DNA of 64,000 bases from Paraspadella gotoi (Eukaryota; Animalia; Chaetognatha). Location: the NCBI GenBank assembly GCA_051294375.1, contig CM119268.1, positions 1,757,486 to 1,821,485 on the forward strand, read 5' to 3'. Position numbers and translations under genes: made by a program. The notes under the pieces are model-generated. The model had not been told where the DNA came from and searched no databases. It worked only from the letters and a program-made list of their open reading frames with translations. Every line of letters starts with the position of its first letter. Position 1 is the stretch's first letter. This document shows, in pieces, positions 24,776-36,189 of the stretch.

Positions 24776-25852
24776 ATGGCCGACAACAATCCTTTAGACA
24801 AACCGCAAATCATCGGTCACGTGGAAAAGTCCGTCGCCTTCACCCTTTACGACGCCAAGTGGATTCCGTCTTCGGCGAGATTCGTCGTCGTCGGGAGTCA
24901 CCCGCGCAACACCGGCGCCCTCCAGATCTACGAAATCGACAAGGGCGACGTCAAGCTCGTCAAGGAAACGGAAAAGGGCGCGGCGTTCAAGTGCGCCACC
25001 TTCGGCGCCTCCTCTCTCGCTAATCGTCATCTGGCGACGGGCGACTTTTCGGGCAACGTCCACATCTGGGATTTGGAGCGAATTCACGTGCCCATCTTCA
25101 CCGCCAAGGGTCACGCGGAGATCATCAACGCCATCGACGGCGTCGGCGGCGGCGGTATCGGCGAAGGCGCGCCGGAGATCGTCACCGGAAGTCGAGACGG
25201 TGTCGTCAAGATCTGGGACCCGCGACAATCTTCTCCCGTGGCGAGTATCGAGCCGGCCGAGGGAGAGACCAAACGCGATTGCTGGACCGTCGGCTTTGGC
25301 AACGCCTACTCGACCGAGGAACGCGTCGTCGCCGCCGGATATGACAACGGTGACCTCAAACTCTTCGATCTTCGCACCATGAGCCTCCGATGGGAGACCA
25401 ACCTCAAGAACGGCGTCTGCGGCCTCCAGTTCGACCGCAAGGATATCGAGATGAACAAGCTCGTCGCTACGACTCTCGAATCCAAGTTCTTCGTCTACGA
25501 CATGAGGACTCAGCATCCCAAAGAAGGCTTCGCCTCGCGGTCGGAAAAGGCGCACAAGTCGACCATCTGGTCCGTGAAACATTTGCCGCAGAATCGCGAC
25601 GTCTTCATGACGCTTGGAGGAAACGGGAGCCTCAACCTGTGGAACTACGAGTATCCGGAGAAAAGGACGAAGAAAGAAGGGGATCACCTCAAGGGCGTGC
25701 CGGGCAGCGTGCATCTCCTTAACAACGTCACCATGTCCACCCAGCCCATTTCCGGCTTCGATTGGCATCCAGACAAATTAGGGTTGGCAGTGTGTACGGC
25801 TTTTGATCAGGCGTTGAGGGTTGTTATCGTTACTAAGTTAAATCGGATATAA
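24776..25852 (+). CDS. WDR92: WD40 protein WDR92/DNAAF10 (dynein assembly factor), intronless CDS
   Basis: [72 protein letters not shown]. Confidence 0.95.
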
Positions 25853-26063
25853 AAATTACCCGATAACCTCATGTTAACTCCAGCAATATTATGCGTTTTT
25901 TATAATTTTAAAAACCTAAGGCGGTGAATATTAATATTATTTTTTTAATAAAAGACCGCATGAACTAGAAATTCTGCACAGCAGACTTATTTATATTTAT
26001 ACAAAGCACTGTTTATTTTGTCAAAACCATAGCTATTTTTAGTCATTTTCCGCTAGATAAAAG

Positions 26064-29000
26064 ATGGCAGATTCTGACGTCGTGACGCTCGGTTTCATCA
26101 ACTTTTACTGTAGAGAAAAACTTTGGCACCATTTGCAAGAATCCTGCCAAAATGGACTTCGGAAGTACGGCAACGACGCCGTGCTTAAATTCTTCAACGC
26201 CTGGGGTCTCGTCAAGGAAGGCTCCATTCAAGAGGGAATGCGGGAGTTGGAGGCGCTCAAAGACAAGGCCGACGTAAATCTCTGCACCTTCATGGCGTTG
26301 ATATGGAGTCACAAGCAAGAAAAGAATGTGGACAGGGAGGCGGTGCAGGTGGTTAAATATTTATTTTGTGGTTTATAATGCTTGATTTAAATCGTATATT
26401 ATTGTTTTACAATCGCATTTCGTTTTTCCTCAGGAACTTGAATCACGTCTGAAGGAGGAACGGCGACAGGCCGGCGAAAAGGGACTCTACTTCGCCGGCC
26501 TCTTTCTTTTCCACATCGGCCGTCACGACAAGGCGCGTGAGTACGTCGAACGCGTCGTCAAGATGAATCCCCAGTCGCGCGAGGGACTCACCCTATTAGG
26601 CTGGAACGACATGAGGGCGGGTCGCGACGCGATGGCTAAAAAAGCCGGTAAATATTTGGAGGAGGCGCTCAAACTGGATTCTCCCAAGGATCCTGATCTA
26701 CTGATGGCCCGCGCGGAGTACATGACTCAGCGAGGAAAGTTGAGCGGCGCTTTGGAGGTTATCAATCACGCCGTCGTAACTTATCCCAATTTCACGCCCG
26801 CGCTTGTCGCCAAGATGCGCATTCAACTCGCTTCGCAAGACTGGGAGCAAGTCGGGGAAACCGCGGCGCGAATCTCGGGGTTGGACGCCAACAATCTTCA
26901 CAGCACCGTCTATCAAATCCTCCATTTGCTGTGTCGCGATGGAAACTGCAACGAAGCTACCAACAAGATCGGGGAACTGGTTGAAAAATTGGATAGATTC
27001 GAACCTCGTAACGGCGACTTTTATTTTCGCATGGCGCAAGTGTTTAGTCGTATCTGTGGTCGCAACAACCTTGTGTTACAACAGACGCTTGAAATGGTTC
27101 AAAGAGCGTTGTCGACGGATAAACAAAACGCCGAGTATTTCAACGAATTGGGGTTTCACTTTTTCATGGAGGGTCGCTACAAAGAATCCCAGAAAGCGTA
27201 CAAAATGGCTATGAAATTGGACGAAACCTCCGTCGCCGCTTTGACTGGTATAATAAACTGTCAACTGCAAGAAGACAAATTGGACGATGCCGAAACCCAG
27301 TTGGATTTTTTAAACGAGGTGCAGCAGAGTATCGGAAAAAGCGCGGAGCTCTGCTTTCTCACGGCCCTGTTGCACCAAAAGAAAGAACGGGAGCCCGACA
27401 AAGTTCAAAAATTGCTAAACGAAGCCGTAGAAATTCACATGGGTGCCGTTGCCGACATGTCGCCCTCCGAAGAATATTACCGTCTCCTAAATCCGGATTT
27501 TCTCTTGACGATTCTTCAGCAACTATTAGAGTACGCGCCTTCCGAACCCGCCAGCGCCGGGATGCCCGCTCCGCCGATTCTTAAGCAAGCCACGGCAGTT
27601 TTGGAACCGTTGTCGCGATGTTTACCTGGTCTTCACGAAGCAGGCTACCTGACGGCCAAAGTCTTGTTCTTGTCCGGCGAGGACGATGGCGCTCAGGCGG
27701 CGTTGGGGCGCGTAATTGAACATGATGTGACCTTCTCCGAAGCGCATCTGCTGATGGCACAGATCCATTTGCACCAGGGGAATCACCAGGCGGCGACTCA
27801 GTCCCTTGACGTTGGGTTGTCCTACAATTTTCAAGTGCGCGATCATCCCATCTATCATCTCATCAAATCCAAATGTCAAAAACTTAACGGCGAACTTGAG
27901 GGCGCCGTCAAGACTCTGACCGCGGCCATGGCGCTTCCGGGCGTGAAAAAGCCCTTGCGAGGACCCCAACCGACGAAAAAGAGGCCCGTGACTCTGAACG
28001 ACAGAGTGACAGTGTACTTGGAACTTGCCGACGCTTACTTGTCCTCGGATTCGCAGCACGAAGCCGCTAAGATTATGCAGGACGCCTTGGAGGAGTTCCA
28101 CAAGACGCCCGAGGAAAATCGCGTCGTCATTGTCAACGCGGGGTTGGCGTTGCGACGCGGGGACGTTCAAGGTGCTATCGGAACTCTTCGCGGGATAGGC
28201 CCCGGCAAGCCCTACTTTGTCATGGCTCGGGAAAAGTTGGCTGACTTGTATTTAAACCACGTGAAAGATCGGCGGCTTTACGCCGCGTGTTATCGAGAAC
28301 TGGTCGAGCAACAACCCTCGCCGCAGACTTGCATCCTTCTAGGCGACGCCTACATGGCCATCCAGGAACCGGAAAAGGCAATCGAAGTCTACGAGTCTGC
28401 TTTAAAGAAAAATCCTCGAGACAGCCAGCTGGCGTCGAAGATCGGGCGCGCCCTGGTCAAGACCCACAATTATGGCAAGGCCATAAACTATTACGAGGCC
28501 GCGTTAAAGAGCGGGAATCAAAATTTCCTGCGTTACGACCTTGCCGAGCTGCTGCTGAAGTTGCGCCAGTACGACAAGGCTGAAAAGATCATAACCCTCG
28601 CCCTTAACGACGAGAGTAAGCCGCAGGATCTCTCCGGAATGATGGACGAGACCAAGTACCTGCATTTGCTCTCGCAGGTGCACATGAAGGTGGGCCGCTT
28701 GGACGAGGGAGTGATGGCTTTGAATCGAGCCAAGGAAACACAGGGAAAGGTTTTAAAACGAGTGGCCATCGAGTCCCCTGAGGTTCTGTCGCAGCAGAAA
28801 CAATTGGCGTCTTCCATCTGCAAGGAAATTGCGTCTCACGCCGCGGGCCAAAGGGATTTCGAAAAAGCGATAAGGTATTATGATAATTTGTTTTATATTG
28901 TGAATCATTTACTATCTAGTAAAAAAGTATATCACATTTTTAGAAAAGGTTGTCTACTGGAAAAAAAATAAAATCAGAATTCAATTTTCTTTCAGTAGCT

Positions 29001-35068: not shown

Positions 35069-35711
35069 CGGCGGGATTTAATCTTCGCGGCATTTTTTTT
35101 TTTGCAATTAGAAATGAAATTGGTACAACCAATATAAATGTTATTCGCCGATAAAAAGATATTTGCACTTTGGACCTCTCTTCAGACAGGAGGAAATACA
35201 ACCAAAAAAAAAACTCAAAAAAAAACTTCAGCAATCGAAATACAACTTACGACTTACGACTCCTGTTAATCCCTTTCATACCACCGACCAAATTTATTGC
35301 CATCACCCACAACTTTTCTTTCCCGTTTTAAAACAAATCGAAAACCGCTTTCCTCCGATGGAGAGAATCCAAGACCGATCGCTGTGTAGCTCCGCGAATT
35401 TTGTCTTACATTCCCTTCGTGCCATTCTATTATTTATCTTAACATCTAACGTTTGACATTTTCCCCGGAGTCTCGTTTTAGTCTCGATCACTTTTTTTTT
35501 CGACCTTTTTTTTTAAATTAGAGATGCCGGAGATATTTTATACCTTTCCGTTTAAATTTTCTACTCTTTTAAATGTTTTTTTAAGATGTGAGTCAGAGGA
35601 GGAGAACAATAAGAAATAAGAAAATACATTCGAAAATCGCCGCCAAACTCGCTTTGTCGTTTTATAAAAAAAAATAAAAGACAATAAATTAATATTAATT
35701 AATAAATAACG

Positions 35712-36189
35712 ATGGCGGGCGACGCGTTGACGGCCTCGACGGGCCTGTATCTGGACGACCTCAACAAGATCCGCGTCCTCGAGCCGGAGATCTCCGCCGA
35801 GACGGAAACGCTGCGCGACGAGTGCGCCGACTTCCTCAAAAAGACGGAGAACTTCAAAGCCATCGCCGACACCTTCGTGCGGCACGTCGACACCCTCCAG
35901 GGACAAGTGGAGAAGGAGAAGATGAAGGGAATCGGGTATAGAAATCTCCTCAAGAGCGTCGCCAAACAGCGGGAAGCCAAGAAGCAGCAGCTGCAGGTGG
36001 CGCGGATGGGAAATTACCGGTTGAGTCAAAAAGTCTCGGATAACTCTCAACATTTTTTTTTTTGGACCTTAGGCGCTCATCGCCGAGAAGAAAATGCAGT
36101 TGGAGAGATTGCGTCTTCAGAGCGAATCACTTCAAAAAGTCGAGGCAGAGCAGATTGACTTCATCGATCAGTACATAATGAGGAAATAA
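35712..36189 (+). CDS. IFT20: Intraflagellar transport protein 20, 2 exons
   Basis: Exons 35712-35996 and 36073-36189; [50 protein letters not shown]. Confidence 0.95.

What the first reader, a model, noticed from the sequence alone, without database searches (positions are those of the whole stretch)
24776..36189. Operon-like run WDR92-TTC21B-ASB-NICN1-IFT20 with unpaired splice acceptors before start codons
Seen: stop-to-ATG gaps of about 211, 397, 194 and 643 bp. Pyrimidine-AG sites lie just upstream of the ATGs (ttttccgctag|ataaaagATG, ttcatcttag|, tcttgtatcag|) with no evident upstream exon. Established: spliced-leader trans-splicing resolves polycistrons in nematodes, tunicates, flatworms and other groups. 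Inference: a polycistronic ciliary transcript.
Basis: inference. Interest (0 to 1): 0.7.

Follow-up and report, generated by a model that had tools for sequence, protein, structure and literature searches.

The report
Likely cilia-gene operon in an invertebrate
Five intact animal genes, most of them cilia-related, lie head to tail only 194-643 bases apart, and the first four are likely copied as one long RNA that would be cut into separate messages by adding a spliced leader, as is already known in arrow worms, although the leader itself was not seen.

Summary
In detail: WDR92, TTC21B, an ankyrin-SOCS gene, NICN1 and IFT20 are intact, on one strand, 211/397/194/643 bp apart. Unpaired AG sites lie 7, 29 and 32 nt before three ATGs; IFT20 has none nearby. 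The acceptor motifs alone are weak (combined p about 0.07). In the one RNA run, WDR92 RNA ends 27 nt before the TTC21B acceptor. The TTC21B contig is 2,851 nt longer than its coding sequence needs, so it likely runs through the spacer into the ASB gene. X-box-like (RFX) sites sit at the head of the run and in no spacer. Against: no leader was seen at the single acceptor tested, and that contig starts 6 genomic bases before the junction. The run continues as 13 same-strand genes with a second tight cluster. Trees, CpG content and unnamed relatives point to a chaetognath-like animal (inferred, about 0.7), a group where such operons hold 18% of genes. Verdict: likely a trans-spliced operon of four genes (0.65), IFT20 doubtful; a new member of a known kind. 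The scan noted a similar cluster in another genome.

The parts
15860..24123 (-). TSNAXIP1-like gene, divergent from WDR92 (ATG at 24123; 3' end approximate)
   Evidence: Pfam TSNAXIP1_N; open 5' exon chain; minus-strand coding segments
24268..24281 (.). X-box-like palindrome (predicted RFX site), TSNAXIP1 side of the shared promoter
   Evidence: 2 mismatches to a recalled consensus
24483..24496 (.). X-box-like perfect palindrome, about 15 nt upstream of the inferred start of the WDR92 RNA contig (about 24511)
24776..25852 (+). WDR92/DNAAF10, single coding exon, 358 aa
25853..26063 (+). Spacer 1 (211 bp): WDR92 RNA contig ends at 26029, AG acceptor-like site ends at 26056, TTC21B contig starts at 26051
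26064..31042 (+). TTC21B/IFT139, 3 exons (26064-26348, 26434-28874, 29812-31042), 1318 aa; intron 1 seen spliced in RNA
31043..31439 (+). Spacer 2 (397 bp) with AG site ending at 31410; likely crossed by one RNA contig
31440..33883 (+). Ankyrin-repeat SOCS-box (ASB-like) gene, 2 exons, 785 aa
33884..34077 (+). Spacer 3 (194 bp): inferred RNA 3' end near 33979-33980, AG site ending at 34045
34078..35068 (+). NICN1 (nicolin-1), 2 exons, 216 aa
35069..35711 (+). Spacer 4 (643 bp): no near acceptor; holds a 31-nt end of a dispersed repeat at 35114-35144; best AG ends at 35585
35712..36189 (+). IFT20, 2 exons, 133 aa; membership of the operon doubtful
48960..63229 (+). Second tight same-strand cluster: RING1-like, SPG7-like, MTPAP-like, B4GALT7-like, RPAP3, ALDH6A1-like; gaps 257, 143, 167, 201, 143 bp
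   Evidence: RING1, SPG7, B4GALT7 and ALDH6A1 names rest on Pfam domains plus recall, the MTPAP name on recall alone

Best explanation
WDR92, TTC21B, the ankyrin-SOCS gene and NICN1 lie head to tail with short gaps and are likely transcribed as one polycistronic RNA from a predicted RFX-controlled promoter shared with the divergent TSNAXIP1 gene, and each downstream message would be released by 3' cleavage of the gene before it and spliced-leader trans-splicing at the unpaired AG. Shown: the gene layout, cis-splicing of TTC21B intron 1, the RNA contig ends in spacer 1, and the positions of the X-box-like sites. Inferred: the contig crossing spacer 2, the promoter, the leader, and the animal's identity (probably a chaetognath). 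IFT20 may be a fifth cistron or a separate gene.
For: Gaps of 194-397 bp with AG sites 7-32 nt before three ATGs and only weak donors upstream. In run X1, which is spliced RNA (85-nt GT-AG joint), the WDR92 contig ends flush at 26029 after a CA, 27 nt before the acceptor, which leaves almost no room for a separate promoter outside the WDR92 transcript. The TTC21B contig is 6,821 nt; 2,851 nt lie past the stop, which if colinear and fully spliced ends at 33979 in spacer 3, about 65 nt before the NICN1 acceptor. The share of sampled words held by X1 (0.86) fits this model (0.856) and also full spacer cover (0.871), but not coding-only cover (0.772) or DNA (1.0). Three sites in 64 kb lie within 2 mismatches of the X-box consensus (0.07 expected from 30 simulations). 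Two are in the 652-bp head region, one is in a coding exon far away, and none is in the four spacers; functional human X-boxes lie close to start sites (PMC5838959, section 9). The run has 13 same-strand genes (P = 0.0006) and a second cluster with 143-269 bp gaps. The TTC21B tree puts the protein outside all 16 other rows of a protostome clade, sister to the sampled lophotrochozoans (SH-aLRT 99 and 90). CpG o/e is 1.08-1.44 in 11 of 11 genes, fitting the unmethylated gene bodies reported for a chaetognath, in which nearly half of the genes are trans-spliced and 18% lie in operons (PMC12460157, passages).
Against: No loose end (leader) appeared at the only acceptor tested, and no contig bridged spacer 1. 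The TTC21B contig starts at 26051, six genomic bases before the junction, so RNA with unspliced upstream letters exists there. The chaetognath leaders listed in PMC2481426 Table 3 end in a different sequence and cannot explain those six letters. The acceptor scores alone are not significant (Fisher p = 0.07). A pyrimidine-AG plus A-rich pattern fitted on these three sites hit 0 of 7 genes of the second cluster at the first thresholds and 0-3 of 7 over six settings. IFT20 lacks a near acceptor. MAK, a ciliary kinase with its own likely 5' exon, also has no strict X-box, so the absence of X-boxes in spacers is not decisive. A contig across two genes does not show a single transcript. No named chaetognath, rotifer, flatworm or gastrotrich sequence was in either tree.
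Confidence: 0.65

Rival explanations
1. The genes are independent units in a compact genome. Each has its own promoter overlapping the 3' end of its neighbour, the AG sites are chance features of U-rich 3' ends and A-rich 5' UTRs, and contigs fuse because UTRs overlap or transcription reads through.
For: No leader seen; the TTC21B contig starts on genomic letters 13 nt before the ATG. Acceptor-strength AGs are common in non-coding DNA here, 9-21% of windows. The held-out test of the motif was weak.
Against: Only 21 nt separate the two RNA contigs in spacer 1. No X-box lies near TTC21B or IFT20, while two lie at the head. A run of 13 same-strand genes is unlikely by chance. The likely lineage is known to use operons widely (PMC12460157, PMC2481426).
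Confidence: 0.2
2. The genes are co-transcribed but resolved without a leader, or persist as stable spliced dicistronic mRNAs (for example TTC21B-ASB) translated by re-initiation or leaky scanning.
For: The long contig appears to be spliced and to include spacer 2 unbroken. No leader at 26056.
Against: Spacer 1 is broken cleanly between a likely 3' end and the AG site. Each spacer holds 3-6 upstream ATGs, which would hinder re-initiation. Assemblers merge precursor and mature RNA once short tips are removed (own knowledge).
Confidence: 0.08
3. Mixed case: two short operons or hybrid units (WDR92-TTC21B-ASB, or ASB-NICN1) with internal promoters, each gene trans-spliced as a mostly monocistronic transcript.
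For: Contig depths differ (357 and 224, a poor measure). Most trans-spliced chaetognath genes are not in operons (PMC12460157, passages). Only 2 of 4 stop-to-ATG gaps are under the 250-bp rule of that paper.
Against: No sequence sign of an internal promoter was found, and the contig length suggests continuous RNA over spacer 2.
Confidence: 0.07

Closest known systems
Chaetognath operons (Paraspadella gotoi, PMC12460157; Spadella cephaloptera RPS14-PCNA operon, PMC2481426)
   Same: Unrelated genes head to tail on one strand, a very short distance from the upstream 3' end to the downstream acceptor (27 nt here, 3 nt in the published operon), unmethylated-looking gene bodies, and a tree position outside Lophotrochozoa.
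   Different: No leader was seen here. Published operon genes are enriched for nitrogen and protein metabolism and depleted for finely regulated genes, whereas this run is cilia-themed with X-box-like sites. The species was not established, and the paper's gene table could not be read.
Tunicate and flatworm operons resolved by a single non-specialised leader (Ciona, Oikopleura, Schistosoma; PMC7986045, section 3)
   Same: Short intercistronic distances and unpaired acceptors before downstream genes.
   Different: No tunicate or flatworm protein was among the named best hits for WDR92, TTC21B or NICN1; the leader is not identified.
Caenorhabditis elegans SL2 operons
   Same: One upstream promoter, with 3' end formation coupled to trans-splicing at a nearby acceptor (the proposed mechanism).
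   Different: Distances here are 27 and about 65 nt against about 100 nt (recalled). The acceptors do not share one fixed hexamer. No operon-specific leader is reported in chaetognaths (PMC12460157).
RFX/X-box-controlled ciliary gene promoters (PMC5838959)
   Same: Palindromic X-box-like sites close to the start of ciliary genes, here in a divergent promoter between TSNAXIP1 and WDR92.
   Different: Here one promoter would serve several ciliary genes through one transcript rather than one X-box per gene; RFX binding was not tested.

Membership tests
Eukaryotic operon resolved by spliced-leader trans-splicing | Adjacent same-strand genes with short intercistronic distance | tested here: met
   Gaps 211/397/194/643 bp; 27 nt from RNA 3' end to acceptor in spacer 1
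Eukaryotic operon resolved by spliced-leader trans-splicing | Unpaired splice acceptor upstream of each downstream gene | tested here: inconclusive
   Present before 3 of 4 downstream genes, absent near IFT20; strength not clearly above chance, Fisher p = 0.07
Eukaryotic operon resolved by spliced-leader trans-splicing | Non-genomic leader joined at the acceptor | tested here: inconclusive
   No loose end at 26056, 1 of 3 sites tested, in assembled contigs of one run; contigs drop short tips
Eukaryotic operon resolved by spliced-leader trans-splicing | Polycistronic precursor RNA | tested here: inconclusive
   Contig length implies RNA cover across spacer 2 into ASB; spacer 1 not bridged; a contig is not a molecule
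Eukaryotic operon resolved by spliced-leader trans-splicing | One upstream promoter and no capped starts in the spacers | not testable with these tools
   No CAGE or raw reads; only the X-box distribution as a hint
Eukaryotic operon resolved by spliced-leader trans-splicing | SL RNA gene elsewhere in the genome | not testable with these tools
   No genome held; none found in the window by Rfam or by one published leader motif
Operon as defined for Paraspadella gotoi (PMC12460157) | [quoted passage not shown] | tested here: met
   Met for 2 of 4 stop-to-ATG gaps (211, 194) and 4 of 6 gaps of the second cluster; distances between transcripts are shorter
Operon as defined for Paraspadella gotoi (PMC12460157) | At least one gene with five or more leader-bearing reads | not testable with these tools
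   Only contigs were available
Caenorhabditis SL2-type operon | Leader specialised for downstream genes | not testable with these tools
   No leader recovered
Chaetognatha (source animal) | Proteins group with named chaetognath sequences | tested here: inconclusive
   No named chaetognath hit in three searches; tree position and a long-stem clade of unnamed relatives fit but do not prove it

The most novel reading that the evidence does not exclude
One RFX-controlled promoter drives a function-grouped ciliary operon in an animal: a dynein assembly factor, an IFT-A subunit, nicolin-1 and IFT20 on one transcript, back to back with TSNAXIP1 and followed by the ciliary kinase MAK. This would be a regulated, pathway-coherent operon in a lineage whose operons are described as housekeeping. 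Bolder still, the animal may belong to a small spiralian phylum with no reported trans-splicing.
Probability: 0.3. Interest if true: 0.6.

Novelty: new member of a known kind. Interest (0 to 1): 0.33.

Why it matters
Trans-spliced operons are known in several invertebrate groups, and in chaetognaths they are common, so an operon here would not surprise a specialist. What deserves a look is the content. By gene name, three of the five genes are established ciliary genes, nicolin-1 is recalled as part of the tubulin polyglutamylase complex, both flanking genes are cilia-related, and X-box-like sites sit only at the shared head promoter. If one RFX promoter drives several ciliary genes on one transcript, this is a testable case of an animal operon grouping a pathway, and it would nominate the ankyrin-SOCS gene as a ciliary candidate. 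One search for papers holding all of operon, polycistronic, intraflagellar, cilia and spliced leader returned two unrelated reviews; one for at least four of RFX, X-box, operon, ciliary genes and trans-splicing returned four papers whose listings describe no such operon.

Tried and rejected
Whole genome: none held. Metagenome scan for WDR92 relatives, hoping for transcript contigs with a leader: 80 loci kept of 173, best 64% identity, none from the close clade. N-termini of 14 close unnamed relatives showed no translated leader. Rfam found no family at gathering score in the window. An 18-nt part of a published chaetognath leader had 0 matches with up to 3 mismatches. The repeated 22-31 nt motif in spacer 4 was considered as an SL RNA and rejected: five stretches folded no better than shuffles (z from -0.97 to 0.12), and two copies are the end of a 275-nt dispersed repeat. 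Oscarella as source was rejected: 68% and 49% identity. An automatic exon finder mis-called several introns and was replaced by hand models checked for open frames. NICN1 exon 1 had no Pfam or PDB match and only fold-level look-alikes in the Atlas. The profile search of protein representatives used an out-of-frame stretch of RPAP3 by my mistake, so its zero hits mean nothing. Gene names were absent from the three readable supplements of PMC12460157; the spreadsheet with its gene and operon tables was too large to read and may already list this operon. A paper source for nicolin-1 in the polyglutamylase complex was not found; that role is recalled. The careful TTC21B tree did not finish; the quick tree on 38 chosen rows was used.
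Full report
Observation. I read the region and built gene models by hand. All five frames are intact: WDR92 24776-25852 (one exon), TTC21B 26064-31042 (three exons), an ankyrin-SOCS gene 31440-33883 (two), NICN1 34078-35068 (two) and IFT20 35712-36189 (two). The gaps are 211, 397, 194 and 643 bp, as reported. Pfam confirms the WD40, TT21, ankyrin, SOCS and IFT20 domains. Homologue searches confirm WDR92/DNAAF10, TTC21B and nicolin-1. The three AG sites end at 26056, 31410 and 34045, which is 7, 29 and 32 nt before the ATGs.

Is it more than chance? A matrix from 37 hand-modelled cis acceptors of this window scores the three sites 0.7, 0.1 and 1.9 (cis median 1.9). Equal or better sites occur in 16%, 21% and 9% of 708 non-coding windows; Fisher p is 0.07, or 0.15 with IFT20, which has no near acceptor. 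All three sites are followed by A-rich sequence, which is rare at cis acceptors (1 of 37) and in non-coding windows (15 of 708). That pattern was fitted after the fact. In the seven genes of the second cluster it hit 0 of 7 at the first thresholds and 0, 2, 2, 3, 2 and 0 of 7 over six settings (P from 0.013 to 1). So the motif evidence is suggestive only. Orientation is stronger: the five genes open a run of 13 same-strand genes to the window's end (P = 0.0006 among 16 genes), with a second cluster at 49-64 kb whose gaps are 143-269 bp. A coding scan found no convincing minus-strand gene between them, only weak segments inside a large MAK intron.

RNA. One public run, X1, holds 0.86 of the sampled words. 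Laid on 24590-28870, it skips TTC21B intron 1 exactly as modelled, so it is spliced RNA. Two contigs were laid. The first covers WDR92, ends flush at 26029 after a CA, and runs 79 nt beyond the laid start, to about 24511 if colinear. The second starts flush at 26051. No contig bridged spacer 1 and no loose end was seen. The likely WDR92 3' end is thus 27 nt from the TTC21B acceptor. The second contig is 6,821 nt long. After the laid part and the rest of the TTC21B coding sequence, 2,851 nt remain; if colinear and fully spliced these cover spacer 2 and both ASB exons and end at 33979, about 65 nt before the NICN1 acceptor. Even with TTC21B intron 2 retained the contig would reach far into ASB. 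This is arithmetic on a length, not an alignment, and a contig is not a molecule. The expected word share under this model is 0.856, against 0.871 for full spacer cover, 0.772 for coding sequence only and 1.0 for DNA.

The result against my reading. At the one acceptor tested no leader appeared, and the contig begins six genomic letters before the junction. A trans-spliced message ending its leader in AG would share only two of them. Assemblers remove short tips and this tool drops short records, so a leader can be lost in contigs (own knowledge and the tool's notes), but the plain reading of a native start near 26051 remains open.

Promoter. Scanning the window with a recalled RFX X-box consensus gave three sites within two mismatches, against 0.07 expected from 30 first-order simulations: one in a coding exon at 3382, and two at 24268 and 24483 in the 652-bp region between WDR92 and a divergent TSNAXIP1-like gene. 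The site at 24483 ends about 15 nt before the inferred start of the WDR92 contig. None of the four spacers has a site, even with a relaxed pattern. In human genes, functional X-boxes lie close to start sites (PMC5838959, section 9 read). This fits one head promoter serving TTC21B and perhaps IFT20. It is not decisive, since MAK lacks a strict site too.

Source animal. No genome is held. Named WDR92 homologues reach 72% identity, while unnamed proteins from JGI and Logan contigs reach 83-85%; NICN1 shows the same gap, up to 50% against 79-81%. In a quick tree of 48 chosen WDR92 rows the window protein and seven unnamed relatives form one clade on a long stem (SH-aLRT 100), with no named member. 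In a quick tree of 38 chosen TTC21B rows it is sister to all sampled lophotrochozoans (99 for the joint clade, 90 for the rest); no arthropod, rotifer, flatworm or chaetognath was among the rows. CpG is not depleted in 11 of 11 genes (o/e 1.08-1.44). A chaetognath fits all of this: the group is described as sister to other lophotrochozoans (search listing), and Paraspadella gotoi has unmethylated gene bodies, trans-splicing of nearly half of its genes and 18% of genes in operons (PMC12460157, passages). I put this at about 0.7; it is an inference.

Mechanism. Most likely, polymerase starts near 24511 under RFX control and reads through WDR92, TTC21B, the ASB gene and NICN1. Introns are spliced in cis, each gene's 3' end is cleaved a few tens of bases before the next acceptor, and a capped leader is trans-spliced to the AG, giving each downstream message a short A-rich 5' UTR. 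Shown: layout, cis-splicing, contig ends in spacer 1, motif positions. Inferred: everything about promoter, precursor and leader. IFT20 lies 643 bp on, past the end of a dispersed repeat, with its best acceptor 126 nt upstream and followed by an upstream ATG; it may be separate. MAK has a strong donor at 37659 upstream of its ATG and so likely its own 5' exon.

Comparison and novelty. The arrangement works like the operons of chaetognaths, tunicates and flatworms, where a non-specialised leader resolves polycistrons (PMC7986045, section 3 and passages read; PMC2481426, section 12 and passages read, where three bases separate poly(A) site and acceptor in one operon). Membership is not proven, because the leader test was inconclusive. 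By the 250-bp rule of PMC12460157, two of the four gaps qualify, and the operon may already be in that paper's unreadable spreadsheet. The unusual point is the ciliary theme with X-box-like sites at the head; two literature searches found no such case (listings only).

Verdict. The feature is real and most likely an ordinary trans-spliced operon of four genes, possibly five, in an animal group where operons are probably already known. New member of a known kind; interest 0.33.

Noticed in passing
window 48960-64000 +: Second tight cluster (RING1-like, SPG7-like, MTPAP-like, B4GALT7-like, RPAP3, ALDH6A1-like and a further gene), gaps 143-269 bp; acceptor-like AGs before RING1 (48931), RPAP3 (58919), ALDH6A1 (60942) and the last gene (63485). 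A second candidate operon.
   Followed up: partly
window 24776-25852 and 58932-60818: WDR92 (Monad) and RPAP3, whose Pfam domain is described as a potential Monad-binding region, lie in the same 13-gene same-strand run, 33 kb apart; both are single-exon genes.
   Followed up: no
window 24776-31042, 58932-60818, 4113-7755: Patchy intron loss: WDR92 has 0 introns, TTC21B 2, RPAP3 0, and the ABC transporter has one very long exon, while neighbours keep 6-9 introns. Three short unnamed relatives of WDR92 (P0123, P0126, P0135) diverge after about 65 residues, as if they keep an intron that the window's gene lost.
   Followed up: partly
window 19435-19693, 48385-48628, 35114-35144, 3000-3035: Dispersed repeat of about 275 nt (77% identity between two copies) with a conserved 22-31 nt hairpin-like end found four times, once in spacer 4; probably a small mobile element.
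   Followed up: partly
window 54866-55170 +: The 5' end of the MTPAP-like gene changes frame between the first ATG and the conserved-looking part; assembly error, tiny intron or another start.
   Followed up: partly
window 4113-7755 +: ABC transporter (ABCC-like) read in two overlapping frames near 5700-5950, a frameshift that may be an assembly error; a strong acceptor at 3041 lies 79 nt before its first ATG.
   Followed up: no
window 58031 and 61546: Two introns modelled with GC donors, in the B4GALT7-like and ALDH6A1-like genes.
   Followed up: no
window 42255-42489 -: Weak minus-strand coding segments inside the large MAK intron, one with a faint immunoglobulin-domain match below the Pfam cut-off (E = 0.006); possibly a piece of a nested gene.
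   Followed up: partly
window 14747-15862: Tandem array of a 52-nt unit, about 21 copies with many indels, beside N gaps and microsatellites; looks like uncorrected long-read gap filling.
   Followed up: no
window 29280-29400: Exact 62-nt tandem duplication inside TTC21B intron 2.
   Followed up: no
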